Of a DNA stretch of 64,000 nt, positions 45,360 through 59,176 are shown one piece after another (positions within the stretch are counted from its first letter, which is position 1; the number at the start of each line of letters is the position of its first letter). Below the pieces are notes generated by a model. It had not been told where the DNA came from. It did no database searches and saw only the letters and a list, made by a program, of their open reading frames with translations. Origin of the DNA: an uncultured Candidatus Saccharibacteria bacterium (GTDB lineage: Bacteria; Patescibacteriota; Minisyncoccia; Phycocordibacterales; SBAW01). A program made the position numbers and the translations under genes. The stretch is from the NCBI GenBank assembly GCA_964650645.1, contig CAZYUH010000001.1, positions 219,032 through 283,031 of the forward strand. The letters run 5' to 3'.

Positions 45360-46100
45360 ATGCTCAAGAAGAAATCGCTCGGCCAGCACTTCCTGCACAA
45401 CCGCCATTACCTCGCGGCAGTCGCGGACGCGGCCGGCATACGGAAAGGGGACACGGTAGTGGAAATAGGCCCCGGCGAGGGCGCGCTCACCGCCGTTTTG
45501 CTCGAGCGGGGCGCGAAGGTCATCGCGCTCGAGAAGGACGCGCGACTCATCGAGGTTTTGCGCGAGAAGTTCAAGGGCGAGGCGCTCGAGGTGATAGAGG
45601 GCGATGCGCTCGACTACGAGCCGGCGCCCGGAAAGTACACGCTGGTCGGCAACGTCCCGTACTACATTACCGGCGCCCTGTTCAGGAAATTCCTGAGCGC
45701 CCGCGCCCAGCCGCAGGTACTCGTGTTTCTTATACAGAAGGAAGTCGCCGAGCGCATCGCCCGCAGCAAGAAAGAGAGCATCCTGTCGCTTTCAATAAAA
45801 GCGTACGGCGCGCCCGCGTATATAAAGAGCGTGCCCGCGGGCGCGTTCACCCCGCCGCCCAAGGTGGACTCAGCGATACTCGCGGTAAGGGGCGTATCGC
45901 GGAGCAATTTTGAAAGCAGGGAGCACGAAGAGCGGTTTTTCGAATTGCTCAAGGCGGGGTTCGCCCAGAAGCGCAAGCTGCTCGCGGGCAACCTCAAGGG
46001 CCTCGCCGATGCGGCCGCGCTGGAACGCGCGGGAATAGGCGCGAAAGCGCGGGCGGAGGACGTGCCTCTCGAGGCGTGGCTGGAGCTCGCCCGATCCTAG
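45360..46100 (+). CDS. rsmA: 16S rRNA (adenine1518/1519-N6)-dimethyltransferase
   Basis: LGQHFLHN...VVEIGPGEGALT KsgA signature. Confidence 0.9.
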   Translation: MLKKKSLGQHFLHNRHYLAAVADAAGIRKGDTVVEIGPGEGALTAVLLERGAKVIALEKDARLIEVLREKFKGEALEVIEGDALDYEPAPGKYTLVGNVPYYITGALFRKFLSARAQPQVLVFLIQKEVAERIARSKKESILSLSIKAYGAPAYIKSVPAGAFTPPPKVDSAILAVRGVSRSNFESREHEERFFELLKAGFAQKRKLLAGNLKGLADAAALERAGIGAKARAEDVPLEAWLELARS

Positions 46101-46456
46101 AAACGGGCAGGGATAGGGGCGCTCGTGCCCACGAGCTGCATGCGCATGCCGGTCAACACAGCAACCCCTATCTTGCAGACGAACGGCGTATCAGCGACGC
46201 CCAGCACCTGCATGCCCGGCGACGCCGGAGGCCCTATAAGCTTGGTAATGGTTGCGGGAGTCCAGATGAGCGGCGTTACGAACGTGAACGGCGCCGGCGC
46301 GGTAATAACATAGAACGAGGGACCGAGCGCGCTCACGCAGGGAACGGAGCTTATGACCTTGCCGCCGAACGAGACGCCGAGCGCCGAGGCGGAAAAAGGG
46401 AAGGCGAACGCGCCCGCCATGACGGCTATCGCCATAAATTTAGTGAATGTCGGCAT
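46097..46456 (-). CDS. small secreted Cys-containing protein (119 aa)
   Basis: Signal peptide MPTFTKFMAIAVMAGAFAFPFSASA. Divergent from the membrane-protein cluster. Confidence 0.4.
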   Translation of the reverse strand: MPTFTKFMAIAVMAGAFAFPFSASALGVSFGGKVISSVPCVSALGPSFYVITAPAPFTFVTPLIWTPATITKLIGPPASPGMQVLGVADTPFVCKIGVAVLTGMRMQLVGTSAPIPARF

Positions 46457-46478
46457 CTTTCCATTATATACTGGACGC

Positions 46479-47360
46479 ATGAGCCCACGCAGCTACCTGC
46501 CTTCGGCGCAGTTCATGGTCATTGTCGGCTCCTTGCTGGTTGCGGGAGGCGCCGTCGCGGCGGCCCAGCACTACACTTCCGCGAAGAACGCGCCTGCCAC
46601 GCTCGCGAGCGCCGGCAAGAATGCGGGAACAGAGGAGTGGGAAAAGTCGCTTGCCGATATCCAGGCGCAAAGCGGCGTCGACTTGCCCGACGCGCCCGAC
46701 CCTAACGCGGTCAACACCCTCATAAGCCTCTCCCAGAGCGACAACCTGACCGACAGCGTCGGCCGGGGCATTTTGGCGCGCATCACGACGGCCAACATGC
46801 AGGGACTGGGGGACGACGCGCCCACCCAAGACAGCATTATCGCCGCAGCATCCGCCCAAGTGAACGCTTCAGCAAGAGAAGTCCCGCCTCCGGCCCTCAC
46901 GCTGGTCGAGCCGACCCTGGAGAGCCAGCGCGCGTTCGGCAACGCCGTCATGGAGGCCCTTAACCGCCACCCGAAGGCGAACTCCAACGACACCATGGGC
47001 ATACTCGCCAAGGCGACCGATACGCGCATTACCGCCCCCCTCTCGGGACTGCCTGCCATAGGGAAGGAGTACGCGGCGCTTGCGCGCGACCTGGCGGCCA
47101 TACCGGTCCCCTCGACCCTCGCTCCTTTATATAAGGAAGCGGTGGCGAACTTCTCGGCGATAGCGGCGCTGTATCCGGACATGGGAAAAGTAGTGGATGA
47201 CCCGATAAAAGGCATCGCCGCGCTGCAGCAGTACCAGGCGCTCCTGGCCGAAACGGGCGGCGTGTTCACAAACATGGCCCAGTCTCTCAAGAATGGCGGT
47301 ATACTTTTCACTAAGGACGAACCCGGAAGCGCGTGGGAATTTTTCCTGTCCGCGTCCTAA
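46479..47360 (+). CDS. N-terminally membrane-anchored protein (first gene of the T4SS-like cluster; VirB8-like topology)
   Basis: One TM helix (FMVIVGSLLVAGGAVAAA) then a 250-aa external domain. TATACT lies 6 nt before the ATG. Confidence 0.45.
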   Translation: MSPRSYLPSAQFMVIVGSLLVAGGAVAAAQHYTSAKNAPATLASAGKNAGTEEWEKSLADIQAQSGVDLPDAPDPNAVNTLISLSQSDNLTDSVGRGILARITTANMQGLGDDAPTQDSIIAAASAQVNASAREVPPPALTLVEPTLESQRAFGNAVMEALNRHPKANSNDTMGILAKATDTRITAPLSGLPAIGKEYAALARDLAAIPVPSTLAPLYKEAVANFSAIAALYPDMGKVVDDPIKGIAALQQYQALLAETGGVFTNMAQSLKNGGILFTKDEPGSAWEFFLSAS

Positions 47361-47377
47361 ACGCCCGCCATCACTCA

Positions 47378-49372
47378 ATGCCACGGAAGATCATCCTCAT
47401 AATAGTCGGCGCGTTGCTCTTCCTGGCCCTCTTGGCGCTCTTGTGGTTCTGGTTTTTACACCGCTCGCCCGCGGCCGACACCGCGACTCCAGGCGGCTTC
47501 GCCACGTCGAGCGACCGCACGCAGGGCAGGGGCACCGGCCAAGCCCAAGGCAACACGCCGTCCGGCGTACTGCCGGGCGGCGCTACCGGCCAGCAGGTAG
47601 ACAACGGTGACGGTATCGACATTACCGGAGGCGGCATCGGCACGGCCGGTGGCATCGGTACCGGCGGGCTGGGCGGCGTTGGCACCGGCGGAAGCGGCAT
47701 CGGCATGAACGGGAGCGGCATAGACATGGGCTCGTCGAGCAGTTCAGGCGCGGGTACCGGGTCGCAGGCGGGCACCACCACCGACGCGGGCGGCGTAACC
47801 ACCGGCGCCTGGCTCGGAAGCAGCGTATCGGAGCGCATATTCAGCCCGAGCGACATCGCCGACCTCAATAATCCGGGCGCCCTGGGCGGCACGCCGTTCA
47901 TATCGACCACGCCCCAGCCGGCAAGCCTCGGCAATTCCGGGCTCGTGCTCGGGCTTACGGCGGCGGGCTGCCTGGCGCAGTGGGCCGCCAACCAGATAGC
48001 CGGCACCGTCGCGACCGCGGTCGACCCGGGGACCATAGGCGGCGCGGCCATAGGAGTCGTCACGGCCGACATCGGCGCGGCGAAGCAGCGCAACGAGTCC
48101 AAGAGCCAGACGGTAATGCAATGCATCGTGAAGTCGATAGCCCAGGCGGCCATAGACCAGATCACGCGCAGCGTCGTCAACTGGATAAACTCCGGCTTCA
48201 ACGGCCAGCCGTCGTTCGTGACCAACTTCAACCAGTACTTCGCCAACGTGGCCGACCAGGCGGCGGGGCAGTTCATAAAGGGCTCGGCGCTCTCGTTTTT
48301 GTGCAGCCCGTTCGCGCCGCAGATAAAGATAGCCATCGCGCAGAGCTACGCCAACCGCAACGGCTCGTCCGGGGCGTCCTGCTCGCTCTCCAGGGTGACC
48401 AATAACATCAACGGCTTCCTCGGCGGCAACTGGGGCGCGGGCGGCTGGAGCAGCCTCCTGCAGTTCACGACCGTGCCCACCAACAACCCCTACGGCGCGT
48501 ACGCCTACGCGCAGATAGGGCTCAACGGCGCCATCGCGAACGCGCAGAACAACGCCAACCGCAACATATCGCCGGGCGGGTTCATATCGGTGCAGAAATG
48601 CGACAACGTGCCCCTGGTGACGGCCGGCACCGGCGCGATGCAGACCCGCAAGAACTGCAAGGTGACCACGCCGGGGCAGGTCATAGAGGACTCGCTGAAG
48701 GCGAGCCAGAACTCGTCCATAAACCAGCTCAACATCGCCCAGGACATCAACTCGATAATCAACGCGCTCACCAACCAGATGGTGCTCAAGACCCTGTACG
48801 GCGGGCTCGCCAACGCGAATAGCGGCGTCACCAACCCGCTCGCGCCCGCCATAGACCAGGCCGCGAGCGCGCAGGCCAAGGACATGCTGGCCAGCCTGCA
48901 GGCGAGCGCGAACTACGCGGTGCAGTACGGCTCGGCCAAGCAGGGAAGCGCCTCGGACATCCAGCAGGTCCAGCAGAACTTCAATACGCTCTACAACTGC
49001 TGGCAGACCGCCGCGTCGTCGACAGCGCTCACCCCCGACAAGCAGGCGCAGGGGGCGCAGGGGGCTACGACCGCCGACACGCAGATACTCCAGCTCCAGG
49101 CGCAGATAGACGCGCTCAACGCCGACATCACGCGCGCCAACGCGGCCATGGCGACGATACAGAACCTCCAGTCGCAGGTGCTCTTCGCGGCCACGCCCGG
49201 CGACATATCGGCGGCCGCCTACGCCATACAGGCCGCAGGCCCGTCGCTCATGACCCAGGCGGACGTCACCACCGCCCAGCAGAACCGCGCGAGCCTCCAG
49301 ACCCAGCTGACCGCCACCAACCAAATGGCCCAGAGCGGGCTCGCGCAGTGCCGCGCCGTCCTGGGCGCATAA
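47378..49372 (+). CDS. membrane-anchored Gly-rich/large ectodomain protein
   Basis: TM helix (ILIIVGALLFLALLALLWFWFL), a GGIGTGG glycine-rich linker, a 450-aa Asn/Gln/Ala-rich domain, and a C-terminal coiled-coil. Confidence 0.5.
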   Translation: MPRKIILIIVGALLFLALLALLWFWFLHRSPAADTATPGGFATSSDRTQGRGTGQAQGNTPSGVLPGGATGQQVDNGDGIDITGGGIGTAGGIGTGGLGGVGTGGSGIGMNGSGIDMGSSSSSGAGTGSQAGTTTDAGGVTTGAWLGSSVSERIFSPSDIADLNNPGALGGTPFISTTPQPASLGNSGLVLGLTAAGCLAQWAANQIAGTVATAVDPGTIGGAAIGVVTADIGAAKQRNESKSQTVMQCIVKSIAQAAIDQITRSVVNWINSGFNGQPSFVTNFNQYFANVADQAAGQFIKGSALSFLCSPFAPQIKIAIAQSYANRNGSSGASCSLSRVTNNINGFLGGNWGAGGWSSLLQFTTVPTNNPYGAYAYAQIGLNGAIANAQNNANRNISPGGFISVQKCDNVPLVTAGTGAMQTRKNCKVTTPGQVIEDSLKASQNSSINQLNIAQDINSIINALTNQMVLKTLYGGLANANSGVTNPLAPAIDQAASAQAKDMLASLQASANYAVQYGSAKQGSASDIQQVQQNFNTLYNCWQTAASSTALTPDKQAQGAQGATTADTQILQLQAQIDALNADITRANAAMATIQNLQSQVLFAATPGDISAAAYAIQAAGPSLMTQADVTTAQQNRASLQTQLTATNQMAQSGLAQCRAVLGA

Positions 49373-49378
49373 CCTATC

Positions 49379-51847
49379 GTGAATAGCAAACTGCAAAAAC
49401 TGAAAGACATATGCCGCACGATGGTTCTCGCGCTTCTCATGCTGGGGATAGCGGGAGGGGTGCTTCCCATACCCGCGCCCAGGGCTGAGGCCCAGGGCAT
49501 ATCGGAAACCGCATCAAGCGTAGGGAATGTCATAAATGACACTCCCGGATCATGCGCGCAGCGCGGCGGCACATGGAACGGAGTCACTGGCGCAGGGTAC
49601 TGCTCCGTATCCCCCAACAGCCCCGCCGGCCGCGTACAAGGGGGGTTCGACGCCCTTAAAGAGGACTCGTCCGTGTGCCCCATAACCAGCCCAAGCGTCT
49701 GTCTCAGCAATATTGTGTACGTGTTTACCGTAGGTTTGGGTAGCGGCCTTGCCTATATAAGCGCGTTCATGCTCGACACCAGCGTCTCGCTGTCGCTTAA
49801 CAGCGCCGCGTACGCGCTCACGTTCCTCTCCGCGGGATGGACCACCACGCGCGACCTCGCCAACATGGCGTTCATACTCATACTGGTCTACCTTGCCTTC
49901 ACCATCATGTTCCGCGCGGAGACCACCAACACCATTCGCACGCTCGCATGGGTCATATTCATCGCGCTCATCATAAACTTCAGCTTCTTTTTTACGCGCG
50001 TCGTCATAGACGCGGGCAACATACTGGCGGTGCAGTTCTACAACAGCGTCGGCACCGGGCCAAACGGGAAGACGGTCACGATGGCGGAGACCTTCGCCGC
50101 CACCAACAGCGGCACCGGGGCGCTCGCCAACACCGCCACGGGCGCCATAAGCTACGTTATGCCGAACGGCACCCTGGAGAACACCAAGGACCTGACCGCG
50201 AGCATTATGCACGGGCTCAACGTGCAGGAGCTTCTGAACACCAAGGGCTTCAAGAGCTTCGAGAGCAACAGCGGATTCCTCGCCAAATTCATCACGCTCT
50301 CGCTCTTGTACCTTACAGTCGGCGCATGCTACTTCATACTCGCCGCCATGTTCCTCGCGGTGGGCGTCAAGTTCATCATCCGCATCGCGGTGCTCTGGTT
50401 CCTCATCATCGCCTCGCCTTTAGCGTTCGTGTGCAAGGCGGTGCCCAACAAGCCACACATATCGGGCCAGTACGACAAGTGGCAGAGCATGCTGGTGCAC
50501 CACGCCTTCTACCCGGCGTTCTTCCTGTTCATCTTCTTCTTCCTCTCCGTCATCATGACCAGCATGAACGCGGACGGCGGCATCATGGGCAACCTGGCGA
50601 AGGACCTCAACGCATTGGCGTCCAACCCCAACCTGGGCGGCGGCACCTACCTCCTGAACCTCATCGCCGTGGTATTCATCCGCCTCGGCCTCGTCATCGC
50701 GATGCTCTACATCGCGCTCAAGGCTTCCGAGGCTTTGAGCGTGAAGGGAAGCGAGGTGGCGCGCAGCGTGACGGGCTTCGCGTTCAGCCAGACCGGCAGG
50801 CTCGCCGGCGCGCCGGTGGGCTACTTCGCCCGCAACACCATAGGCAGGGGAGGCGCCGCGATGGCCAACAAGAGCGCTGATTTCGAGCGAAAGGCGGTGA
50901 AGGCGCCTTTTCTCAAGAAGCTGGCCTTTAACGGGGCCGCAAAGGCGACAAAGTCGGTAGGAACCTCGCTCGGTACGGCCACGTTCGACCCGCGCAACGC
51001 TCCCGGGGCAAGCATACTCAAGAAGGGGGTGCAGAATATTACCAGCGGCCCCATCAACGCGGGCAGCCCGCCCGCCGGCGGCTACATAGCGCAGGAAAAG
51101 GAGCGTAACGAGAAACGCAAAGCGGCGGAAATAGAAGAGAAGAAAAAGGACCGCGAAGCGAGCAACCAGAAGGCACTGCAGGACCTCATAGAAAAGAGCG
51201 CGCGCCATGACGAGCTTGAGGCCAAGGAAAAGGCGGGGACCATTACGCAGATTGAAAGGGACCAGAAACACATGCTTAAGCGCCAGATAGGCGGTCTTGA
51301 GAGCAAGATAAACGGGCTAAATAAGGGCGAAATAGACAGCTATAAGCTGGCCGACCTCCAGAAAGCAGTGAAGCACCTGAATAAGGATACGGTAAAGAAA
51401 ATAAATGAGAGTGACAAGCACGACGAGAAAGGCAAGGAGGATCTCCGCATGACGCACACTCTCGCTATGCAGGAAAAAACCGGCAAAATAAGCATCGAGA
51501 AGTCCCAGGAGATCATTAACGAGATCAGGGGCCTGCACGCATCACTCTCCAACATAGCCAAAGTGCCTGTAGCTATGACGGCAAAGATAGAGCGCGCGGT
51601 CGCCGCAGGAAAAGCACTCAATCCGCAGGTCATTAGCGAAGCGAACAGGGAAGCTAAGAAGCTTAAGGCCGTGTACGCCCATAAGCAGAGCAGCGGGAGA
51701 TCGAAGCTAGATAGAGATGACGCCAAGGCCGCCGTCGACACCCTTAACGAGGTCATACCTCATCTGGAAAAGCTCAAGGGGCATATAGAAGACGTGCCGG
51801 AGACCCTAGGCGGCACACCCAATGAAAAGGAATTTATAATGGCATAA
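49379..51847 (+). CDS. polytopic membrane protein with C-terminal charged coiled-coil (VirB6/TrbL-like by architecture)
   Basis: 822 aa. Signal peptide, Cys-containing ectodomain, at least 6 hydrophobic helices, and a Lys/Glu-rich C-terminus. GTG start. Confidence 0.5.
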   Translation: MNSKLQKLKDICRTMVLALLMLGIAGGVLPIPAPRAEAQGISETASSVGNVINDTPGSCAQRGGTWNGVTGAGYCSVSPNSPAGRVQGGFDALKEDSSVCPITSPSVCLSNIVYVFTVGLGSGLAYISAFMLDTSVSLSLNSAAYALTFLSAGWTTTRDLANMAFILILVYLAFTIMFRAETTNTIRTLAWVIFIALIINFSFFFTRVVIDAGNILAVQFYNSVGTGPNGKTVTMAETFAATNSGTGALANTATGAISYVMPNGTLENTKDLTASIMHGLNVQELLNTKGFKSFESNSGFLAKFITLSLLYLTVGACYFILAAMFLAVGVKFIIRIAVLWFLIIASPLAFVCKAVPNKPHISGQYDKWQSMLVHHAFYPAFFLFIFFFLSVIMTSMNADGGIMGNLAKDLNALASNPNLGGGTYLLNLIAVVFIRLGLVIAMLYIALKASEALSVKGSEVARSVTGFAFSQTGRLAGAPVGYFARNTIGRGGAAMANKSADFERKAVKAPFLKKLAFNGAAKATKSVGTSLGTATFDPRNAPGASILKKGVQNITSGPINAGSPPAGGYIAQEKERNEKRKAAEIEEKKKDREASNQKALQDLIEKSARHDELEAKEKAGTITQIERDQKHMLKRQIGGLESKINGLNKGEIDSYKLADLQKAVKHLNKDTVKKINESDKHDEKGKEDLRMTHTLAMQEKTGKISIEKSQEIINEIRGLHASLSNIAKVPVAMTAKIERAVAAGKALNPQVISEANREAKKLKAVYAHKQSSGRSKLDRDDAKAAVDTLNEVIPHLEKLKGHIEDVPETLGGTPNEKEFIMA

Positions 51848-52604: not shown

Positions 52605-53048
52605 ATGGCGCAGTACCAAGTACCCCAGTTCATCGAGGTCGAAGACAAGATATTCGGCCCGCTTACCCTCAAGCAGTTCATCTACCTCGCCGGCGCGGGT
52701 GGGCTCGCGCTCCTGTGCTTCACGCTCCTGCCGCTCTTCCTCGCCCTGCCGCTTGCCGGCCTTGCAGGCGGCATCGGGGCAGGGTTCGCGTTCTATAAAG
52801 TGAACGGAAGGCCGCTCATCGTCGCCGCAGAGCACGGCTTCAGCTACCTCTTGGGCAACAAGCTCTACCTGTGGAAGCAGCGCGAGGCGAGGGCGGAGCC
52901 GGTTGAAGCGAAGAAAGAGGCCGCCGACCCGTCCACCATTACCGTGCCGAGGCTCAGCCAGAGCCGGCTCAAGGACCTGTCCTGGTCGCTCAACATCAAG
53001 GACCAGAACCAGCCCCAGAACGCCGCGCGCGGCAATCTCCAACTATAA
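52605..53048 (+). CDS. small two-TM membrane protein (VirB3/PrgI-like)
   Basis: 147 aa with a hydrophobic hairpin LKQFIYLAGAGGLALLCFTLLPLFLALPLAGLAGGIGAGFAFY. It sits immediately upstream of the VirB4 ATPase, as VirB3 does. Confidence 0.5.
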   Translation: MAQYQVPQFIEVEDKIFGPLTLKQFIYLAGAGGLALLCFTLLPLFLALPLAGLAGGIGAGFAFYKVNGRPLIVAAEHGFSYLLGNKLYLWKQREARAEPVEAKKEAADPSTITVPRLSQSRLKDLSWSLNIKDQNQPQNAARGNLQL

Positions 53049-53050: not shown

Positions 53051-53704
53051 ATGGCAACCCAAGCATCCCAGGCTAAGGCGGCGCAGGACTTCGTCCCCAT
53101 AAAGGAGGTGCGCAACGGCATCGTGATACTTAAGGACGGCAGCCTGCGCGCGCTCCTCATGGCCTCCTCCATAAACCTCGCGCTCAAGTCCCAGGACGAG
53201 CAGCAGGCGATAATCGGGCAGTTCCAGAACTTCCTCAACTCGCTCGAGTTCACGGCGCAGTTCTTCGTCGAGAGCCGCGACCTCGACATCCGCCCCTACA
53301 TCGCCCTCCTGGAGGACCGTTACGCCAAGGAGCTCGACGACCTCATGCGCATCCAGATACGCGAGTACATCGCGTTCATCAAGGACTTCACCGAGCGCGC
53401 CAACATCATGTCGAAGAACTTCTTCATCGTCGTGCCGTACGACCCGGCGTTCGCCGCGCGCGGGAAGGGGATCTCGTCGGTGTTCTCGGGCGGCGGCGCG
53501 GCCTCCGCGGCCATGAGCGACGAGCAGTTCGAGCAGTACCGCACCCAATTGGAGCAGCGCGTCGCGGTCGTCGAGCAGGGGCTGGTCCGCACCGGCGTGC
53601 GCGTCGTCGAGCTGGGCACCGAGGAGGTCATCGAGCTCTTCTACAAGCTCTTCAACCCCGGGGAGCTCGAAAAGCCGCTCCAGGTAACGCAGATACCCCG
53701 CTAA
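53051..53704 (+). CDS. VirB4/TrbE-family ATPase, N-terminal domain encoded as a separate ORF
   Basis: KEVRNGIVILKDGSLRALLMASSINLALKSQDEQ... matches the conserved VirB4 N-domain (CagE_TrbE_VirB). Stops 10 nt before the ATPase ORF, which is in another frame. Confidence 0.6.
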   Translation: MATQASQAKAAQDFVPIKEVRNGIVILKDGSLRALLMASSINLALKSQDEQQAIIGQFQNFLNSLEFTAQFFVESRDLDIRPYIALLEDRYAKELDDLMRIQIREYIAFIKDFTERANIMSKNFFIVVPYDPAFAARGKGISSVFSGGGAASAAMSDEQFEQYRTQLEQRVAVVEQGLVRTGVRVVELGTEEVIELFYKLFNPGELEKPLQVTQIPR

Positions 53705-53714
53705 GCACAGACCT

Positions 53715-55529
53715 ATGGCACTACTCGATTTCCTCAAGACCAAGCAGGACCCGAAAAGCTCTCCCGTGGCGCCCATCATGCCCGAGCAGATCTACAAGCA
53801 GGGCGTCCTCGAGCTCCAGGACGTCATCGCGCCCTCGGCGCTCAAGATCACCCCGCGCGAGATAAACCTCGGCGACAAGATAGCGCGCACGTTCTTCGTT
53901 ATGTCGTACCCGCGCGTCCTCTCCGACTCGTGGTTCGCGCCCATCATCAACCTCGACCGCGTCATGGACATGTCGGTGTTCATACACCCCATAGACTCGG
54001 CCGACATCCTCAAGAAGTTCCAGAAGAAGGTGGCCGAGGTGCAGAGCCAGATAATGGCCCGCGAGGAGAAGGGCCTCGTGCGCGACCCGGTGCTCGACAC
54101 CGCCTACCAGGACCTCGAGAACCTGCGCGACCAGCTCCAGCAGGCGCAGGAGAAGCTCTTCGACGTCGGCGTCTACATCACCATTTACGGCGCCACGGTC
54201 GAGGAGCTCGACAAGGTGGAAAGCGAGATAAAGTCCATGCTCGAAAGCAGGCTGGTGTACGTGAAGCCGGCGCTCTTCCAGCAGGAGCAGGGCTTCAAGT
54301 CGGTCCTGCCGCTCGGCCGCGACGAGCTCTCGGTGCTCTCCAAGCTCAACTCCTCGCCCCTTTCGTCCATCTTCCCGTTCGTGTCCTTCGACCTCACCTC
54401 CGACAAGGGCATCCTCTACGGCGTCAACCGCCACAACGCCTCGCTGGTCCTCTTCGACCGCTTCTCGCTCGAGAACTACAACTCGGTGATATTCGCCAAG
54501 TCGGGCTCGGGCAAGTCCTACATGACCAAGCTCGAGATACTGCGCACGCTCATGTTCGATACCGAGGTCATCGTCATCGACCCCGAGCGCGAGTACGAAT
54601 TCCTGGCCCAGGCGGTAGGGGGGCGCTATTTCAACATCAGCCTCAACTCCGAGCACCACATCAACCCCTTCGACCTGGCGCCCCCGCGCGAGGACGAGTC
54701 GGCGGCGGACATTTTGCGCTCCAACATCGTGGCGCTGGTGGGCATGTTCCGCATCATGCTCGGGGGCCTCACGCCCGAGGAGGACGCGATAATAGACAAG
54801 GCGATAACCGAGACGTACGCGCTCAAGGACATCACCATAGACAGCAACTTCGCCGAAGTGGAGCCGCCGCTCCTGAGCGACTTCGAGCTGGTGCTCTCGG
54901 GCATGCAGGGCTCGGAGTCGCTGGTCCAGCGCCTCTCCAAGTACACCAAGGGCACCTGGAGCGGGTTCATCAACCAGCCGACCAACGTGGACCTCAACAA
55001 GAAGTTCGTCGTGTTCTCGGTGCGCGACATGGAGGACGACCTCAAGCCGGTCGCCATGTACCTCATTACGCACTACATATGGAACGCGGTGCGCAAGAAC
55101 CTCAAGAAGCGCCTCATGGTCATTGACGAAGCCTGGTGGATGATGAAGAGCGAGGACACCGCCTCCTTCCTCTACGGCATGGCCAAGCGCGGCCGCAAGT
55201 ACTACCTGGGGCTCGCGACCATTACGCAGGACGTGGACGACTTCCTCAAGTCGCCGTACGGATTGCCCATGATATCCAACTCGTCCATCCAGATACTGCT
55301 CAAGCAGTCGCCCACGACCATAGATACCCTCCAGAAGACCTTCAACCTCTCCGACGAGGAGAAATACCTCCTTTTGGAGTCGGACGTGGGGGAGGGGATA
55401 TTCTTCGCGGGCCTCAAGCACGTGGCCATAAAGGTGATAGCCTCATACACCGAAGACCAGATAATTACCTCCGACCCCTCGCAGGTGTTGGCATTGCGCA
55501 AGCAAAAGACCGAAGCCGTGGCACAATAG
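53715..55529 (+). CDS. VirB4/TrbE-family type IV secretion ATPase (C-terminal ATPase part)
   Basis: Walker A FAKSGSGKSYMTK, Walker B LMVIDEAWWMM, and VirB4-like motifs throughout. Confidence 0.85.
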   Translation: MALLDFLKTKQDPKSSPVAPIMPEQIYKQGVLELQDVIAPSALKITPREINLGDKIARTFFVMSYPRVLSDSWFAPIINLDRVMDMSVFIHPIDSADILKKFQKKVAEVQSQIMAREEKGLVRDPVLDTAYQDLENLRDQLQQAQEKLFDVGVYITIYGATVEELDKVESEIKSMLESRLVYVKPALFQQEQGFKSVLPLGRDELSVLSKLNSSPLSSIFPFVSFDLTSDKGILYGVNRHNASLVLFDRFSLENYNSVIFAKSGSGKSYMTKLEILRTLMFDTEVIVIDPEREYEFLAQAVGGRYFNISLNSEHHINPFDLAPPREDESAADILRSNIVALVGMFRIMLGGLTPEEDAIIDKAITETYALKDITIDSNFAEVEPPLLSDFELVLSGMQGSESLVQRLSKYTKGTWSGFINQPTNVDLNKKFVVFSVRDMEDDLKPVAMYLITHYIWNAVRKNLKKRLMVIDEAWWMMKSEDTASFLYGMAKRGRKYYLGLATITQDVDDFLKSPYGLPMISNSSIQILLKQSPTTIDTLQKTFNLSDEEKYLLLESDVGEGIFFAGLKHVAIKVIASYTEDQIITSDPSQVLALRKQKTEAVAQ

Positions 55530-55535
55530 GGGTAC

Positions 55536-56201
55536 ATGAACCTCGGATTGCGCGTCTTCGCCGGACTCATCGACCTCCTGCAGTTCATATTCTTCATAGT
55601 ATTTTTGGCGTTCCAGCTGATGACGCCCGCGGGCGGGGGCGCGGCAGGCGCGGCAGGCGGCGCCTACGCGTGCTGGTCGCTCTCGGGCGGGATACTAGAG
55701 GGCATAGCCAACGCGGTAGCTTGCGCGGCAGCCGGGGGCATCGGAGGCGCGCTGCTCAGCGCCTTCGCTATCCCCTTAGGGATAGCCATAGACATGACTC
55801 TCAGCTGGACGCTTGGCCTCCTCCTTATCATCGCGCTAGTGGTAACCGGGCGGTTCTCATTCATGGCGGTCGTTGCGGGCTTTACCGTCGAGATGATGCC
55901 GGGCCTCAACGCGTTCATACCCGGCTGGAGCCTGCTCGTGCACCGCTCACTGCAGGCGCACAAACTCAAGCGGCAGGGCGTCGGCTTGGCAGGGCGGACC
56001 ATGCTTAGCGTGGCGGGAAGCGCCGCGGGCCTGGTGCCCGGAGGCAGCATCGCCAAAGCCGCCCTCAAGCCCGCCCTGGGCGCCGCCGCATATGGCATAA
56101 GCGCCGCCACGACCCCTCTTCGCGATACCGGGCGGGTGCCCCTTAAGAATTTCGACGGCATACGCCCGGCAAGCGGCGCAAACCCTAAAGCATATGCATA
56201 A
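55536..56201 (+). CDS. Gly/Ala-rich multi-TM membrane protein
   Basis: 221 aa with 3-4 hydrophobic helices and GGAAGAAGG tracts. Confidence 0.45.
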   Translation: MNLGLRVFAGLIDLLQFIFFIVFLAFQLMTPAGGGAAGAAGGAYACWSLSGGILEGIANAVACAAAGGIGGALLSAFAIPLGIAIDMTLSWTLGLLLIIALVVTGRFSFMAVVAGFTVEMMPGLNAFIPGWSLLVHRSLQAHKLKRQGVGLAGRTMLSVAGSAAGLVPGGSIAKAALKPALGAAAYGISAATTPLRDTGRVPLKNFDGIRPASGANPKAYA

Positions 56202-57210
56202 GCGCCTTAAATTACTCGCATACGCGCTCCTGTTCGCAACTCCTGCGCTCGCCGGCGCCCAGTTCGCGCCCGACCCCGTACAGTACGTCATAACCCCCGA
56301 AGTGCCCGGGCCCGGCCAGACCGTCACCATAGAAGCGCAGGGGATAGGCGCCTTCCTGGGAGACGCCGCTATTACCTGGACGAAAGACGGGAAAGCGGCG
56401 CAATCGGGCGCAGGGCTGCGCTCGTACTCCTTCGTGACCGGAAGCATAGGCTCGGTCACCAAGGTCCGTGTCGACATACGGTCGTCATCCAACGGCTCGT
56501 TCAGCAAGGAGTTCGTATTCCGCCCGTCGGCGGTCAATCTCGTATGGGAGGCGGACACCTCGGCGCCGCCGCTGTTTGCGGGCAAGACGCTTTATTCGGC
56601 CGGCTCGTCGCTTAAAGTGGTCGCGTTTCCCACGGTCGTCGTGAACGGCGCGCGCGTCGCGGCCCAGAGCCTCTCGTACCAGTGGACGCGGGGCGACCAG
56701 GCCCTGCCGGCGCAATCGGGGCTCGGCCGCAGCACGCTGTCGCTCGAAGGCGACCAGCTCCAGCCCGGGGAGGAGGTGTACGTAAAGCTGTACCTTGGCG
56801 CCAGCCTGGTGGCAGAGGGCGCCGTCGCGATACCCGCCACGGAGCCGCAGCTGCGCTTGTACGAGCGCAACGCCCTGCGCGGCGTCCTGTACGATACCGC
56901 CCTCCCAGACGGGATAGCGCTCAGCGACAAGGAGATAACCGTCGCCGCGCAGCCGTACTACTTCTCTAACGCCGCGCTCAAGGCCGGCGCGCTCCAGTAC
57001 GCCTGGATGCTCGACGGCAACGAGATAAGTGGCCCCACGTCGGCGGAGGGCATACTCACCCTGCGCCAGACCGGCGGGGGCGCGGGCCGCTCGACGCTCT
57101 CGGCGTCGCTCCAGAACACCAACAGCGACCAGCTGGTGCAGTCGGCCACCGCGCTCATTACCATACTCTTCGGCCAGCAGGCGTCAGGCGGCTCATTCCT
57201 CGGACTATGA
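56194..57210 (+). CDS. secreted beta-rich protein with three internal about 100-aa repeats (Ig-like)
   Basis: Signal peptide MHKRLKLLAYALLFATPALAGA. Repeated W(T/M)xDG motifs. Confidence 0.5.
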   Translation: MHKRLKLLAYALLFATPALAGAQFAPDPVQYVITPEVPGPGQTVTIEAQGIGAFLGDAAITWTKDGKAAQSGAGLRSYSFVTGSIGSVTKVRVDIRSSSNGSFSKEFVFRPSAVNLVWEADTSAPPLFAGKTLYSAGSSLKVVAFPTVVVNGARVAAQSLSYQWTRGDQALPAQSGLGRSTLSLEGDQLQPGEEVYVKLYLGASLVAEGAVAIPATEPQLRLYERNALRGVLYDTALPDGIALSDKEITVAAQPYYFSNAALKAGALQYAWMLDGNEISGPTSAEGILTLRQTGGGAGRSTLSASLQNTNSDQLVQSATALITILFGQQASGGSFLGL

Positions 57211-57908
57211 AAAAAGCGGCTTACATAGCGATTCTTTTCCTTCTTTTCGGGATAAGCCCGGTTTCTTCTGCGCAGTCGACGACGGCCGAGTGCCAGCAGC
57301 GATACGGGCAAAATTACGCATACAACCAGCAGTCGGGTACCTGCGTGCAAAGAGTGCTCATTAACAACATCGGCAACACCGCAGCCGACAACAGCGACAG
57401 CAACGCCTTCTGCAAGGGCGGCGCGTGCACTTACGTGCCGCTCGAGCCCCTGCCGACCCTGCCCGGATGCTACGGGCCCAACCCGCCCGCCAACTGCGTC
57501 AATCCCTCGACGCAGTCCTTCGCGAGCGCCATGCCGAGCATCTTCAAGCTCCTCATAGGCGCGGGCGCCCTGGTCGCCATCATCATACTGGTCCTGGGCG
57601 CGCTCACCTACATGTTCTCGGACATCGCGGGCAACAAGAAGAGGGCCATAGACCGCATCCGCAATGCCATGTGGGCCATAGTGCTCCTCCTGTCCTCGTA
57701 CCTCATCCTCTACACCGTCAACCCGGATCTCGTGATGTTCAAGCTCGACCTCGGCGGCACGAGCAACTTCGACACCTCGCCGGCCGCTCCGGGCACGGCG
57801 CTCCCGCAGCAGATGACCCAGGCGCAGCTGCAGGCGCAGCAGAACCAGTGTGCCAACGGCGGCAAGAGCGTGCGCTTCGGGCCTGACGGGTCGCTGATTT
57901 GCCAATAA
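57207..57908 (+). CDS. secreted Cys-rich protein with two C-terminal TM helices (candidate pilin/VirB2-like subunit)
   Basis: Signal peptide, 8 Cys in the ectodomain, then a hydrophobic hairpin (LLIGAGALVAIIILVLGALTYMF / AMWAIVLLLSSYLILYTV). Confidence 0.45.
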   Translation: MKKAAYIAILFLLFGISPVSSAQSTTAECQQRYGQNYAYNQQSGTCVQRVLINNIGNTAADNSDSNAFCKGGACTYVPLEPLPTLPGCYGPNPPANCVNPSTQSFASAMPSIFKLLIGAGALVAIIILVLGALTYMFSDIAGNKKRAIDRIRNAMWAIVLLLSSYLILYTVNPDLVMFKLDLGGTSNFDTSPAAPGTALPQQMTQAQLQAQQNQCANGGKSVRFGPDGSLICQ

Positions 57909-59176
57909 GTATGCAGAACCTCAACTGGAAACTGGCAGCGGAAATAATAGGCGGGACGCTCTTCATCGCGCTTCTGGCGTGGTTCTTCCTCTTCCGATCG
58001 CCCGGGCTCGAGCCCGCCGAAACGGCGCCCCAGCAGACCTTCGTCGGGCAGGAGAGCGTGACCGCCGACGCGCCTGCCGGAAGCGGCGATGGCGCGAACG
58101 CGGCCGAGCGGATACCGTCGCCCGTCTCGAAGCAGAAAGTGTTCAAGATAAGCGACGGGCCCGTCGCGGGCGCCGCCTTCATGCAGGACCTGCGCCCCAC
58201 CACGACCGTCGCCCGGTTCGTCATGCAGCAGAACGGCCACGTGCTCGACCTGGCCATAGACAGCCCGGGTGCGGTGGCGCGCGCCGTCTCGAACACCACC
58301 ATACCGGGGGCGGTGCGGGTAACGTGGGGGATACAGAACGCATCCCTGCGCCAGGTTGCGTCCGGGGCGGTGCTCCAGTACATCGACGCGGGCGCGATAA
58401 AGACCGTCGCGCTCCTGTTCCCTTCCGCTACGACGACCGCCTCCTCGACCATGCCGGCGCCCGTGCGCATACAGTTCCTGCCCGACAACATACGCTCCGT
58501 TGACACTTCGCCCGACGGCCTTTCGCTCGCGTACCTCATAGCGGCCCCGGGCGGCTCGGATATTTACACGGCGCGCGCCGACGGCTCGAACCCGAAGAAA
58601 ATCGCCTCGCTTCCGCTCTCGCAGGTAACGCTCTCGTGGCCGTCGCCCCAGACCCTGCTCGCCGTTTCCGCGCCCGCCACGGGCGTGCCAGGCATCGCGT
58701 TCTCCGTGAACGCGGCGTCGGGCGCCGTCTCGCCGCTCCTGTACTCCCCAGGCCTCGCCGCCACGGCCAACCGGAGCTTCAGCCAGGTGGTGTACCAAAG
58801 CTCATCGCCCGACAGCCGCCTGACCTACTCCCACAACACCGCCACCAACCTCGACCACGCGCTCTCGTTCGACCCCATGCCCGAGAAGTGCGTATGGAGC
58901 CGCCTCCAGGAGAGCGTCGTAGTGTGCGCCGTGCCGCTCGCGTACACCGCGCCGGGGTATGCCGACCTGTGGCGCCAGGGAGCGGCGTCGGTAGCCGACT
59001 CCATCGTGGCGTACAACCTCCTGACCGGGCAGGCGACCATCATCACCACTCCGGGCGGGCCCGACGGGGGCGTGCCTTCGGACATCATGCAAATGGCGCT
59101 CTCCGCCGACGAGAACTACCTGCTCTTCGTTTCAAAAGGGACCCGCAGCCTGTGGGGCGTGCGGCTTAGGGAGTAA
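57899..59176 (+). CDS. membrane-anchored beta-propeller-like (TolB/PD40-like) protein
   Basis: N-terminal TM helix. Repeated ...DGS...YL/ VS segments are suggestive of PD40 blades. Confidence 0.45.
   Translation: MPISMQNLNWKLAAEIIGGTLFIALLAWFFLFRSPGLEPAETAPQQTFVGQESVTADAPAGSGDGANAAERIPSPVSKQKVFKISDGPVAGAAFMQDLRPTTTVARFVMQQNGHVLDLAIDSPGAVARAVSNTTIPGAVRVTWGIQNASLRQVASGAVLQYIDAGAIKTVALLFPSATTTASSTMPAPVRIQFLPDNIRSVDTSPDGLSLAYLIAAPGGSDIYTARADGSNPKKIASLPLSQVTLSWPSPQTLLAVSAPATGVPGIAFSVNAASGAVSPLLYSPGLAATANRSFSQVVYQSSSPDSRLTYSHNTATNLDHALSFDPMPEKCVWSRLQESVVVCAVPLAYTAPGYADLWRQGAASVADSIVAYNLLTGQATIITTPGGPDGGVPSDIMQMALSADENYLLFVSKGTRSLWGVRLRE

What the first reader, a model, noticed from the sequence alone, without database searches (positions are those of the whole stretch)
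46097..59176. 13-kb operon-like cluster of membrane/secreted proteins with a VirB4 ATPase: a T4SS-like (possibly ComB-like DNA-uptake) system beside oriC
Eleven co-directional, tightly packed genes (46479-59176) plus a divergent small secreted protein. They encode almost exclusively signal-peptide or TM proteins with no recognisable enzymatic families, except an unmistakable VirB4/TrbE ATPase (53051-55529). Architecture-based candidates are: a VirB8-like bitopic protein (46479); a large Gly-rich anchored ectodomain protein (47378); a VirB6/TrbL-like polytopic protein with a C-terminal charged coiled-coil (49379); a VirB3-like two-TM protein directly upstream of VirB4 (52605); a Gly-rich multi-TM protein (55536); an Ig-repeat secreted protein (56194); a Cys-rich two-TM pilin-like protein (57207); and a membrane-anchored beta-propeller protein (57899). 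No VirD4 coupling protein, relaxase or oriT is visible. The same window holds comEC, comM and a PilB-like ATPase. The system may therefore import DNA, like Helicobacter ComB, or mediate cell-cell contact, rather than conjugate. Most components have no assignable family.
Basis: partly seen in the sequence, partly recalled or inferred. Interest (0 to 1): 0.75.

Follow-up and report, generated by a model that had tools for sequence, protein, structure and literature searches.

The report
Patescibacteria-type type IV secretion locus
This is a real, tightly packed gene cluster for the chromosomal type IV secretion machine that ultra-small CPR/Patescibacteria keep beside their replication origin; the system was described in 2023-2025, so this copy is ordinary, although about half of its parts still have no known family.

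Summary
Eleven co-directional, abutting ORFs (46479-59176, + strand) with coding-type GC3 encode mostly membrane or secreted proteins around a VirB4 ATPase, next to jag-yidC-dnaA-dnaN and a DnaA-box cluster.

"VirB4 53051-55529" is two genes: a 217-aa TrsD-like protein, which is the detached VirB4 N-terminus, and a 604-aa CD1110-family VirB4. The split is kept in all 76 related loci where both genes could be delimited. The "VirB8-like" protein (46479) is predicted all-alpha, not the NTF2 fold.

Supported parts are PrgI/VirB3 (52605), an extended VirB6/TrbL-like protein (49379, by transitive homology) and a VirB2-like T4SS pilin (57207). The other parts are lineage-specific: a protein with a Cys-rich domain and helical bundle (47378), from a family of more than 5,000 clusters with no Pfam model; three Ig-like repeats (56194); and a membrane-anchored TolB-like propeller (57899).

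The order uvrD-ksgA-[cluster]-jag-yidC-dnaA-dnaN is kept in 80 Paceibacteria species genomes. No VirD4 was found within ±10 kb of virB4 in any of them. This matches the Patescibacteria T4SS clade published in Microb Genom 2025 and Cell 2023.

The likely role is a pilus-bearing device for contact with, or transport to and from, the host cell, not conjugation. ComB-like DNA uptake is possible but unsupported. I rate it a new member of a known kind, of modest interest.

The parts
46097..46480 (-). Divergent small secreted protein of 127 aa as drawn. It is probably 119 aa, starting at M9 (about 46456). Whether it belongs to the system is uncertain.
   Evidence: It has a signal-peptide-like N-terminus and GC3 of 0.73. 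tblastn found it in the same place in 16 of 80 related loci, in the same orientation in 15. A close relative calls it as 119 aa. No family was found.
46479..47360 (+). Bitopic membrane protein of 293 aa, with one N-terminal TM helix and an all-alpha ectodomain. It is a lineage-restricted accessory and is not VirB8-like.
   Evidence: One TM helix at residues 10-28. There are 106 homologs, all unnamed CPR proteins, mostly 293 aa. The AF2 model has pLDDT 76 (above 90 for residues 140-290), with 12 helices and no sheet. Foldseek against PDB found nothing below E 0.2. hhalign against R388 VirB8 found nothing. tblastn detected it in only 14 of 80 loci.
47378..49372 (+). Anchored surface protein of 664 aa. 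It has an N-terminal TM helix, a Gly-rich linker (32% Gly over residues 50-175), a conserved Cys-rich domain (about 230-480) and a C-terminal long-helix bundle (about 492-662). It is a candidate adhesin or pilus-associated (VirB5-like?) component.
49379..51847 (+). Extended VirB6/TrbL-like polytopic membrane protein of 822 aa (808 aa from M15 at 49421 in databases). It has about 7-8 TM helices and a roughly 320-aa charged C-terminal tail.
   Evidence: TM prediction. The tail is 34% K/R/D/E. Pfam TrbL/VirB6 hits occur in 5 of 45 orthologs, best E 1.6e-4. Homologs at 41-48% identity carry PF04610, and one is named 'type IV secretion system protein'. hhalign to the 779-aa protein in the equivalent position of a Pontibacillus T4SS gave probability 85%, E 6e-6. 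hhalign to R388 TrwI was weak, E 0.0027. The window protein itself has no direct Pfam hit.
51852..52583 (+). Cytoplasmic protein of 243 aa with no TM helix. It has a conserved N-terminal domain of about 100 aa and a Pro/Ala-rich tail. Role unknown.
   Evidence: No TM helix. The N-terminal 100 aa are conserved on the + strand in 38 loci, including low-GC genomes. No family was found.
52605..53048 (+). PrgI-family (VirB3-like) small membrane protein, 147 aa.
   Evidence: Pfam PrgI E 3.9e-9, 37.4 bits against a cutoff of 27. Present in 77 of 80 loci. BLASTP to the Pontibacillus protein in the same position gave E 5e-5.
53051..53704 (+). TrsD-like protein of 217 aa. It is the detached N-terminal segment of VirB4.
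   Evidence: NCBIfam TrsD/TraD family E 3.3e-9. It also aligns to the N-termini of VirB4 models: CD1110 positions 2-114, Mbov_0397 99-233, TrbE 9-169. hhalign to residues 20-199 of a 797-aa Clostridium VirB4 gave probability 82.5%. hhalign to the 274-aa ORF upstream of a short Pontibacillus VirB4 gave probability 99.5%, E 8e-23. A close relative carries the precomputed Pfam family PF26593 TraC-like. Present in 78 of 80 loci.
53715..55529 (+). VirB4 ATPase of 604 aa, the short form that lacks the first ~180 residues or so. Walker A AKSGSGKS is at residue 261 and Walker B LMVIDE at 467.
   Evidence: NCBIfam conju_CD1110 E 1e-116, model positions 181-733 of 752. Pfam P-loop_TraG E 2e-27. PDB 4AG5 E 5.5e-42. 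TrwK E 3e-11, aligning residue 112 to TrwK residue 286. Motifs.
55536..56201 (+). Gly-rich small polytopic membrane protein of 221 aa with 3 TM helices. It is a variable accessory.
   Evidence: TM prediction. No family was found. A positional analogue is present in 37 of 72 loci, and the neighbouring genes abut in about 25.
56194..57210 (+). Secreted protein of 338 aa with three tandem Ig-like repeats.
   Evidence: Signal-peptide-like N-terminus. Invariant Trp residues at 62, 164 and 271, about 100 aa apart. The ortholog profile matches the Ig-like Hoc protein 3shs at E 3.8e-4. Weak Ig_3 and BiPBP_C hits occur in orthologs. Present in 78 of 80 loci.
57207..57908 (+). VirB2-like T4SS pilin of 233 aa. 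It has a signal peptide, a Cys-rich N-terminal extension, a two-TM hairpin at 103-172 and a C-terminal extension.
   Evidence: Pfam T4SS_pilin E 2e-5 (25.0 bits, just under the cutoff of 26.6) and TrbC/VirB2 E 1.3e-3. NCBIfam Mbov_0395 pilin-like E 5e-4. Of 38 orthologs, 34 hit T4SS_pilin (best 2.4e-10) and 8 hit TrbC. Eight Cys residues.
57899..59176 (+). Membrane-anchored TolB-like beta-propeller protein, 425 aa.
   Evidence: One N-terminal TM helix. The ortholog profile matches TolB structures at E 3.7e-5. NCBIfam propeller_TolB E 3e-3. Present in 64 of 80 loci.
42099..43292 (-). LysM + M23 peptidoglycan peptidase, 3 kb upstream of the cluster. It may stand in for VirB1. This is an inference only.
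   Evidence: Pfam Peptidase_M23 E 1.3e-29 and LysM E 1.1e-23. It occupies the same position in a close relative. It is 35% identical over the M23 domain to the endopeptidase that follows virB4 in Pontibacillus.
62336..62531 (.). DnaA-box cluster in the dnaA-dnaN spacer, the probable oriC. It defines the chromosomal context.
   Evidence: Five near-consensus boxes lie here and three more at 60907-60966. The window has 14 in total against 4.3 expected.

Best explanation
The cluster is the chromosomal, vertically inherited Patescibacteria-type type IV secretion system, as found in class Paceibacteria (Parcubacteria). It derives from the conjugation machinery of single-membrane bacteria (MPF-FATA type).

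Membrane core:
- a VirB4 ATPase made of two polypeptides, TrsD-like 53051 and short VirB4 53715
- a PrgI/VirB3-like anchor (52605)
- an extended VirB6/TrbL-like channel or platform protein (49379)

A VirB2-like pilin (57207) indicates that the machine probably builds a pilus-like filament.

The remaining parts are lineage-specific and lie outside the cytoplasm. They probably form the wall-spanning and host-contacting portions:
- the all-alpha bitopic protein (46479)
- the Cys-rich protein with a helical bundle (47378)
- the protein with three Ig-like repeats (56194)
- the membrane-anchored TolB-like propeller (57899)

There is no coupling protein or relaxase nearby, and the position among housekeeping genes is fixed. 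The system is therefore not a conjugative element. Its most likely use is contact with a host cell and transfer of macromolecules, outward or inward, in an episymbiotic lifestyle.

Shown here: component homologies, the split VirB4, synteny, and the absence of VirD4 nearby. Inferred: the pilus, the roles of the unassigned proteins, and the host-directed function.
For: - VirB4: CD1110-family hit above the curated cutoff, matches to PDB VirB4 structures, intact Walker motifs.
- TrsD-like protein equals the VirB4 N-terminus.
- PrgI.
- VirB6/TrbL, through orthologs and homologs.
- T4SS pilin in 34 of 38 orthologs.
- The order VirB6-like, x, PrgI, TrsD, VirB4 matches a Firmicute (Pontibacillus) T4SS that also has a pilin-like gene.
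- The closest plasmid VirB4s are from Firmicutes and Actinobacteria, at 28-36% identity.
- At least 589 relatives were found. The best 80 are all Patescibacteria/Paceibacteria MAGs at 76-93% identity.
- Synteny uvrD-ksgA-cluster-jag-yidC-dnaA-dnaN is kept across the 80 species.
- VirB4 identity tracks DnaA identity, rho 0.51.
- GC content does not differ from the flanks.
- No VirD4 in the window or within ±10 kb of virB4 in the 80 loci. No relaxase or T4CP among the Pfam-scanned window ORFs.
- Literature: the same component set and origin-proximal context are described for Patescibacteria (PMC12102498). The T4SS and its pilins are essential for epibiotic growth of Southlakia epibionticum (PMC10633639, PMC12857230). 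Tubular structures that may be T4SS pili were seen at a Minisyncoccota-host interface (bioRxiv 10.64898/2026.06.21.733656).
Against: - No function has been tested in any Paceibacteria, and the experimental support comes from another class (Saccharimonadia).
- The window's own VirB6-like and pilin proteins fall below the curated family cutoffs. They are assigned through orthologs.
- No VirB8-like protein was found in the cluster. No peptidoglycan hydrolase lies inside it either.
- Six of the twelve ORFs have no family-level assignment at all.
- The rest of the genome could not be searched for VirD4 or a relaxase. The published survey finds VirD4-like genes far from virB4 in most Patescibacteria.
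Confidence: 0.85

Rival explanations
1. The cluster is a ComB-like or Ced-like DNA-uptake machine. It imports DNA from the environment or from a host cell and hands it to ComEC/ComM for nucleotide scavenging or transformation.
For: - No relaxase or coupling protein lies nearby.
- comEC, comM, recJ and a PilB-like ATPase are in the same window.
- The VirB4 P-loop shows distant similarity to the archaeal DNA importer CedB, E 4.4e-9.
- The authors of PMC12102498 themselves propose import of DNA or other macromolecules as a hypothesis.
Against: - The competence genes lie 8-45 kb away, interspersed with glycolysis, RNA-processing and repair genes. They are not part of the conserved cluster.
- ComB has VirB7/9/10-type core proteins, and none is present here.
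- In Southlakia, competence depends on ComEC and type IV pili. A comEC deletion abolishes transformation but not viability, whereas the T4SS is essential. The essential role of the T4SS therefore does not run through ComEC (PMC12857230; PMC10633639).
- The CedB similarity is confined to the ATPase motifs, at 35 bits against a cutoff of 700.
Confidence: 0.1
2. The cluster is the transfer module of an integrated conjugative element, or a remnant of one, that happens to sit near oriC.
For: - The closest non-CPR relatives of the VirB4, TrsD and PrgI genes are on conjugative or mobilizable Firmicute plasmids.
- A tyrosine recombinase gene lies at 31871-32803, in a lower-GC stretch.
Against: - The same gene order between the same housekeeping genes is kept in 80 species-level genomes.
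- VirB4 is better conserved than DnaA in those genomes, and its identity correlates with DnaA identity.
- GC content equals that of the flanks.
- No VirD4 or relaxase was found.
- The recombinase is 14 kb away, with housekeeping genes in between.
Confidence: 0.03
3. The VirB4/TrsD/PrgI/VirB6 core is a T4SS, but the flanking unassigned genes (46097, 46479, 47378, 56194, 57899) are unrelated envelope proteins. They are merely co-located and co-transcribed near the origin.
For: - None of these genes has a T4SS family hit.
- 46479 and 46097 are detectable in only 14 and 16 of 80 loci.
- Origin-proximal regions of small genomes are densely packed.
Against: - 56194 is detected in 78 and 57899 in 64 of the 80 loci, and 47378 in 40 of the 80. 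Each sits in the same position relative to virB4 and the pilin gene, which lies between 56194 and 57899.
- Start and stop codons overlap across 56194-57207-57899.
- All of them are extracytoplasmic, as expected for the outer parts of the machine.
Confidence: 0.2

Closest known systems
Patescibacteria-clade T4SS (Quinonero-Coronel et al. 2025, PMC12102498; Southlakia epibionticum SEML1_0006-0019, Wang et al. 2023, PMC10633639)
   Same: It has the same component set: TrsD, PrgI/VirB3, VirB4, VirB6 and a VirB2-like pilin, with no relaxase nearby. The context is the same too, next to dnaA, dnaN and ksgA, which the paper describes as typical for Paceibacteria. The nearest 80 VirB4 relatives are all Patescibacteria.
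   Different: This copy has a single pilin gene, not an array of 2-11. No peptidase or lysozyme follows virB4 directly, as it does in Southlakia. The conserved Paceibacteria accessory genes (47378, 56194, 57899, 51852) are drawn as unannotated genes in that work. The phylogenetic placement of this VirB4 inside the published clade was not recomputed here.
pGO1/pSK41-type Trs system and CD1110-family T4SSs of Firmicutes (MPF-FATA), for example the Pontibacillus sp. ALD_SL1 megaplasmid cluster NZ_CP062975
   Same: Both have a split TrsD-like protein plus a short (about 600-620 aa) VirB4, a PrgI-like gene immediately upstream, a large polytopic VirB6-like protein before that, and a pilin-like gene in the cluster.
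   Different: VirB4 is only 34% identical. The Firmicute systems carry a large peptidoglycan hydrolase directly after virB4. Those on conjugative plasmids also carry VirD4 and a relaxase. They are plasmid or ICE genes, not fixed chromosomal genes.
Mycoplasma ICE transfer genes (Mbov_0395 pilin-like, Mbov_0396, Mbov_0397 VirB4)
   Same: This is another wall-less or monoderm lineage in which a VirB4 of this branch sits with a VirB2-like pilin-like protein. The window proteins hit these NCBIfam models: VirB4 at E 1.3e-78, TrsD-like at 2.2e-8 and the pilin at 5e-4.
   Different: All scores are below the equivalog cutoffs. The Mycoplasma systems are mobile elements that conjugate.
Helicobacter pylori ComB and archaeal Ced DNA-import systems
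   Same: Both are VirB4-containing machines without a relaxase that import DNA, so they are functional analogues of one hypothesis for this locus.
   Different: ComB has a diderm core (ComB7/9/10) and belongs to the MPF-T branch. Similarity to Ced is limited to the ATPase P-loop. No evidence here links this cluster to DNA.
Minimised Gram-negative VirB/D4 system (R388 Trw)
   Same: Both have functional equivalents of VirB2, VirB3, VirB4 and VirB6. The VirB4 C-terminal two-thirds align at E 3e-11.
   Different: There are no VirB7/9/10/11 equivalents. Profile-to-sequence comparisons with R388 VirB5, VirB6, VirB8 and the VirB4 N-terminus were not significant.

Membership tests
Type IV secretion system (general) | VirB4-family ATPase with intact nucleotide-binding motifs | tested here: met
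   NCBIfam CD1110 E 1e-116, above the cutoff. PDB 4AG5 E 5.5e-42. Walker A at residue 261 and Walker B at 467.
Type IV secretion system (general) | VirB3-like small membrane protein adjacent to virB4 | tested here: met
   Pfam PrgI E 3.9e-9, above the gathering score. It ends 2 nt before the TrsD-like gene.
Type IV secretion system (general) | VirB6/TrbL-like polytopic membrane protein | tested here: inconclusive
   The window protein has no direct hit. TrbL hits occur in 5 of 45 orthologs, best E 1.6e-4. PF04610 is recorded on homologs at 41-48% identity. hhalign to the Pontibacillus counterpart gave probability 85%. hhalign to R388 TrwI gave probability 11%. Topology and position fit.
Type IV secretion system (general) | VirB8-like (NTF2-fold) bitopic protein | tested here: not met
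   The candidate 46479 is predicted all-alpha. It has no structural or profile match to VirB8-family proteins. No other candidate was found in the cluster.
Type IV secretion system (general) | Peptidoglycan hydrolase (VirB1-like) in the cluster | tested here: not met
   No hydrolase domain occurs in the twelve ORFs. A LysM-M23 peptidase lies 3 kb upstream at 42099-43292.
Patescibacteria-clade T4SS (PMC12102498) | TrsD homologue associated with virB4 | tested here: met
   NCBIfam TrsD/TraD E 3.3e-9 and hhalign results. Adjacent to virB4 in 78 of 80 loci.
Patescibacteria-clade T4SS (PMC12102498) | VirB2-like pilin gene near virB4 | tested here: met
   T4SS_pilin in 34 of 38 orthologs. The window protein scores E 2e-5, 1.6 bits under the cutoff.
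Patescibacteria-clade T4SS (PMC12102498) | VirB4 falls in the monophyletic Patescibacteria clade nested in MPF-FATA | not tested
   No tree was built. Indirect evidence: the best 80 of at least 589 relatives are all Patescibacteria at 76-93% identity, and the nearest plasmid VirB4s are Firmicute/Actinobacterial at 36% identity or less.
Patescibacteria-clade T4SS (PMC12102498) | Chromosomal, near dnaA/dnaN/ksgA, with no relaxase nearby | tested here: met
   ksgA lies at 45360-46100, and jag, yidC, dnaA and dnaN lie downstream. The context is conserved in 80 loci. DnaA boxes are present. No relaxase domain was seen among the scanned ORFs.
Conjugative element (plasmid/ICE transfer module) | Coupling protein (VirD4/TcpA) and relaxase with oriT | tested here: not met
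   tblastn with two CD1115 VirD4 proteins found nothing in the window or the 80 loci. Pfam of window ORFs showed none. The rest of the genome was not available.
Conjugative element (plasmid/ICE transfer module) | Variable presence and insertion-site boundaries | tested here: not met
   The cluster is fixed between ksgA and jag/yidC in every locus with enough flank. There is no compositional difference from the flanks.
ComB-type DNA-uptake T4SS | VirB7/9/10-like core proteins and a functional link to ComEC-dependent transformation | not testable with these tools
   No VirB9/10-like hits were found. The functional link cannot be tested in silico. The literature on a relative argues against ComEC dependence of the essential role.

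The most novel reading that the evidence does not exclude
Paceibacteria T4SSs may carry a conserved, so far unannotated outer module. It would consist of the 47378 family (more than 5,000 50%-identity clusters, no Pfam model, with a Cys-rich domain and a VirB5-like long-helix bundle, sometimes decorated with lectin or Ig domains), a three-Ig protein and a membrane-anchored TolB-like propeller. Together with the VirB2-like pilin, this module would build a pilus with a tip adhesin on a single-membrane cell. That would make it a monoderm counterpart of the VirB2/VirB5/VirB6 stalk. The cell would use it as a feeding or exchange conduit into a host cell. The pattern of conservation fits: the motor (VirB4, 78% median identity) is conserved more tightly than DnaA (54%), while the exposed parts diverge fast (26-37%).
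Probability: 0.2. Interest if true: 0.6.

Novelty: new member of a known kind. Interest (0 to 1): 0.3.

Why it matters
Patescibacteria make up a large share of bacterial diversity, and they appear to live off other cells. The T4SS is one of the few machines that nearly all of them keep, and in one cultured species it is essential. What it transports is an open question. This window adds no new kind of system.

It does give a clean, complete example of the Paceibacteria version. It also shows which parts remain unassigned: a very large uncharacterised surface-protein family, an Ig-repeat protein and a TolB-like propeller. The ATPase is under stronger constraint than the replication initiator. 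These points give structural and genetic work on the system concrete targets.

Tried and rejected
- VirB8 assignment of 46479: rejected. AF2 predicts an all-alpha protein. There was no Foldseek or hhalign match.
- PDB sequence-profile searches for the TrsD-like, VirB6-like and 47378 families gave nothing useful.
- tblastn of the VirB6-like TM region against plasmids found no match.
- hhalign of the VirB6-like profile against a 260-aa Clostridium CD1112 VirB6 found nothing.
- Frameshift or pseudogene explanation for the VirB4 split: rejected. The split is conserved in 76 loci, with variable spacing and frames.
- A minus-strand reading of 51852-52583, as called in one relative: rejected, because the + frame is conserved in 38 loci.
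- The promoter and terminator scan of the cluster gave counts no higher than shuffled sequence.
- Two unassigned window ORFs (35892-37379 and 41181-42047) were checked against PDB as possible T4CP or relaxase genes. There were no hits.

Full report
**1. What is in the sequence**

Between 46479 and 59176 the + strand carries eleven ORFs, separated by -10 to +21 nt. Ten have GC3 of 0.77-0.93. The Pro/Ala-rich ORF at 51852 has 0.66. The window is about 63% GC, so these values indicate real coding.
- Single N-terminal TM helices in 46479, 47378 and 57899.
- About 7-8 TM helices in 49379, followed by a 320-aa tail that is 34% charged.
- A hairpin-type hydrophobic stretch in 52605.
- Three TM helices in 55536.
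- Signal-peptide-like N-termini in 56194 and 57207. The latter is followed by two more hydrophobic helices.

The divergent ORF 46097-46480 (-) is also real in the sense of being conserved. tblastn finds it in 16 related loci, and in 15 of them it lies on the same strand and in the same place. Its start probably lies 8 codons further in.

**2. Correction: VirB4 is two genes**

The downstream 604-aa ORF is a VirB4:
- NCBIfam CD1110 family, E 1e-116, 391 bits against a cutoff of 325. It aligns to model positions 181-733 of 752.
- PDB 4AG5 (VirB4 C-terminal domain), E 5.5e-42.
- R388 TrwK, E 3e-11, with residue 112 aligned to TrwK residue 286.
- Walker A (AKSGSGKS, residue 261) and Walker B (LMVIDE, residue 467) are intact.

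It therefore lacks the first ~180 residues or so of a standard VirB4. The upstream 217-aa ORF supplies them:
- It hits the TrsD/TraD family (E 3.3e-9) and the N-terminal ends of four different VirB4 models.
- Its ortholog profile aligns to residues 20-199 of a 797-aa Clostridium VirB4 (hhalign probability 82.5%).
- It aligns to a 274-aa ORF directly upstream of a short (621-aa) VirB4 on a Pontibacillus megaplasmid (probability 99.5%, E 8e-23).
- A close relative's copy carries the precomputed Pfam family PF26593, TraC-like.

The split is present in all 76 related loci where both genes could be delimited. Spacers are mostly 1-16 nt, and all three relative frames occur. It is therefore the native architecture, not a sequencing error or a programmed frameshift.

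**3. The other recognisable T4SS parts**
- 52605 is a PrgI-family (VirB3-like) protein, above Pfam's gathering score.
- 57207 has a two-helix hairpin at residues 103-172. Three independent pilin models hit it: Pfam T4SS_pilin at E 2e-5, Pfam TrbC/VirB2 at 1.3e-3 and NCBIfam Mbov_0395 pilin-like at 5e-4. Of its 38 positional orthologs, 34 hit T4SS_pilin (best 2.4e-10) and 8 hit TrbC.
- 49379 has no direct family hit. Five of its 45 orthologs hit TrbL/VirB6. Several database homologs at 41-48% identity carry PF04610, and one is named "type IV secretion system protein". The ortholog profile also aligns over the conserved TM core to the 779-aa protein in the equivalent position in Pontibacillus (probability 85%). 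With its long hydrophilic tail it fits what the 2025 review calls an extended VirB6 (PMC12857230). I treat this assignment as likely but not proven.

**4. The unassigned parts**

- I predicted its structure from 61 homologs. The model has pLDDT 76 (above 90 for residues 140-290), twelve helices and no beta-sheet.
- VirB8, PrgL, TcpC and TraM all have an NTF2-like alpha+beta fold.
- Foldseek found no PDB match below E 0.2. hhalign against R388 VirB8 found nothing.
- The VirB8 label is rejected. The gene is also the least widely detectable part, found in 14 of 80 loci.

47378:
- It has a TM anchor, a Gly-rich linker, a conserved domain with seven invariant cysteines, and a C-terminal bundle of four long helices predicted with pLDDT above 95.
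- Its family is very large. A profile search of 1.84 billion representatives found 5,188 at E<=1e-3 and 2,089 at E<=1e-30. It has no Pfam model, and sources name its members only "hypothetical protein".
- Some members carry discoidin, Ig-like, Big_2 or PKD domains. This suits a surface adhesin.

The remaining unassigned genes:
- 56194 is a secreted protein with three repeats of about 100 aa, each with an invariant Trp. Its profile matches Ig-like Hoc.
- 57899 is a membrane-anchored TolB-like beta-propeller (profile against TolB structures, E 3.7e-5).
- 51852 is cytoplasmic, with a conserved N-terminal domain of about 100 aa.
- 55536 is a variable slot. A small polytopic ORF is present in 37 of 72 loci.

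**5. Context and relatives**

A scan of one genome per species with the VirB4 found at least 589 relatives. The best 80 are all Patescibacteria MAGs, labelled Kaiser-, Adler-, Nomura-, Campbell-, Taylor- or Zambryskibacteria, Paceibacterota and similar, at 76-93% identity.

tblastn of all window proteins against these loci shows a single conserved order: uvrD, ksgA, (46097), 46479, 47378, 49379, 51852, PrgI, TrsD, VirB4, (55536), 56194, pilin, 57899, jag, yidC, dnaA, dnaN.

No VirD4-like gene occurs in the window or within ±10 kb of virB4 in any of these loci. Pfam annotation of 26 window ORFs outside the cluster shows housekeeping genes only. They include comEC, recJ, pgk, tpi, a PilB-like ATPase, nusA, tig, rny, a CCA-adding enzyme, a Xer-type recombinase, a PNPase-like protein, comM, a LysM-M23 peptidase and uvrD.

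GC content of the cluster does not stand out. DnaA boxes cluster around dnaA. VirB4 identity correlates with DnaA identity across genomes (rho 0.51). This is a fixed chromosomal locus, not a mobile element.

**6. Comparison with what is known**

Everything above matches the system described by Quinonero-Coronel et al. 2025 (PMC12102498). That paper reports:
- VirB4 in about 80% of 3,035 Patescibacteria genomes, forming a clade nested in the monoderm MPF-FATA class.
- TrsD, PrgI/VirB3, VirB6 and VirB2-like pilins near virB4.
- VirB8 and VirB1 rarely detectable.
- Relaxases almost absent, and T4CP genes distant from virB4.
- In Paceibacteria and Microgenomatia, a location beside dnaA, dnaN, rnpA, ksgA and rpmH.

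Wang et al. 2023 (PMC10633639) showed by Tn-seq that the equivalent cluster and its pilins are essential for epibiotic growth of a Saccharibacterium, and noted the lack of a coupling protein and relaxase.

The window's own proteins are already in public databases, on a 754-kb NCBI contig. IMG names both the 217-aa and the 604-aa proteins "type IV secretory pathway VirB4 component". The finding is thus a further member of a described system.

**7. How it most likely works**
- Shown: the homologies of the cytoplasmic-membrane core (split VirB4, PrgI, VirB6-like) and of the pilin, and the absence of conjugation-specific genes nearby.
- Inferred from established T4SS biology: VirB4 hexamers docked on VirB3 and VirB6 energise extraction of pilin from the membrane and its polymerisation on a VirB6 platform. 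The lineage-specific extracytoplasmic proteins take the place of the missing VirB8/VirB1/adhesin functions across the wall and at the tip.
- Inferred from the Saccharibacteria genetics and from imaging of another Minisyncoccota: the device acts at the interface with a host cell. Direction and cargo are unknown.

In Southlakia, however, competence runs through type IV pili and ComEC, and removing comEC does not relieve the need for the T4SS. I therefore give DNA uptake as the main role a low probability.

**8. Observation made in passing**

In the same 80 genomes VirB4 is markedly better conserved than housekeeping neighbours. Median identities to the window proteins are:

| Protein | Median identity to window |
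|---|---|
| VirB4 | 78% |
| TrsD-like | 61% |
| DnaA | 54% |
| KsgA | 47% |
| DnaN | 41% |
| 47378 | 37% |
| YidC | 33% |
| 56194 | 30% |
| 49379 | 26% |
| 57899 | 26% |

The loci were chosen by VirB4 similarity, which inflates the VirB4 figure somewhat. The plateau at 76-80% over ranks 9-80 suggests the effect is real. A highly constrained motor with fast-evolving exposed parts is what one expects of a host-interaction machine.

**9. Verdict**

Two component assignments are corrected. I rate it a new member of a known kind, with interest about 0.3. The residual novelty lies in the unassigned but conserved outer components.

Noticed in passing
window 53715-55529 compared with 60815-62335, and loci L001-L080: VirB4 is more conserved across 80 Paceibacteria species than the housekeeping neighbours in the same genomes. 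Median identities are 78% for VirB4 against 54% for DnaA, 41% for DnaN and 33% for YidC. The extracytoplasmic T4SS parts are only 26-37% identical. The loci were selected by VirB4 similarity, which biases the VirB4 figure upward.
   Followed up: partly
window 47378-49372: This protein belongs to a very large uncharacterised family with no Pfam model: 5,188 representatives of 50%-identity clusters at E<=1e-3. AlphaFold2 could not model its highly conserved Cys-rich domain from 59 sequences.
   Followed up: partly
window 24000-33000: This stretch has lower GC (0.53-0.60 against 0.63-0.69 elsewhere). It contains a SAM methyltransferase (25933-26802, -), a CCA-adding enzyme, an Exo_endo_phos nuclease (30553-31353, -) and a Xer/phage-integrase-type recombinase (31871-32803, -). 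An isolated perfect DnaA box lies at 27508.
   Followed up: no
window 42099-43292 (-): A LysM + M23 peptidoglycan peptidase lies 3 kb upstream of the cluster, in the same position as in a close relative (L085). Firmicute relatives of this T4SS carry an M23 or NlpC/P60 hydrolase directly after virB4, so it could be the missing wall-opening enzyme.
   Followed up: partly
window 46456-46481: The divergent genes 46097-46480 (-) and 46479 (+) have overlapping start codons as drawn. Even with the shorter start, only 22 nt separate them. Promoters for both must therefore lie inside coding sequence. The sigma-70 consensus scan found nothing there.
   Followed up: partly
window 35892-37379 and 41181-42047: Two sizeable ORFs (495 aa and 288 aa) with coding-type GC3 have no PDB sequence match, and the 495-aa one has no Pfam match. 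The 288-aa ORF was not put through a family scan here, and its relative in L085 has only a faint DUF1402 hit.
   Followed up: partly
L082 (Pontibacillus sp. ALD_SL1 plasmid NZ_CP062975, 351801-361354): A Firmicute megaplasmid typed 'non-mobilizable' carries the nearest non-CPR counterpart: a pilin-like gene, a 779-aa polytopic protein, a PrgI-like protein, a TrsD-like protein, a short VirB4 and a large M23 endopeptidase. Several of these are annotated only as hypothetical.
   Followed up: partly
window 34085-35749: A PNPase-like protein with two RNase PH domains lies in the window. A 2026 preprint links PNPase and VirB4 as jointly ancient in Minisyncoccota that feed on host RNA.
   Followed up: no
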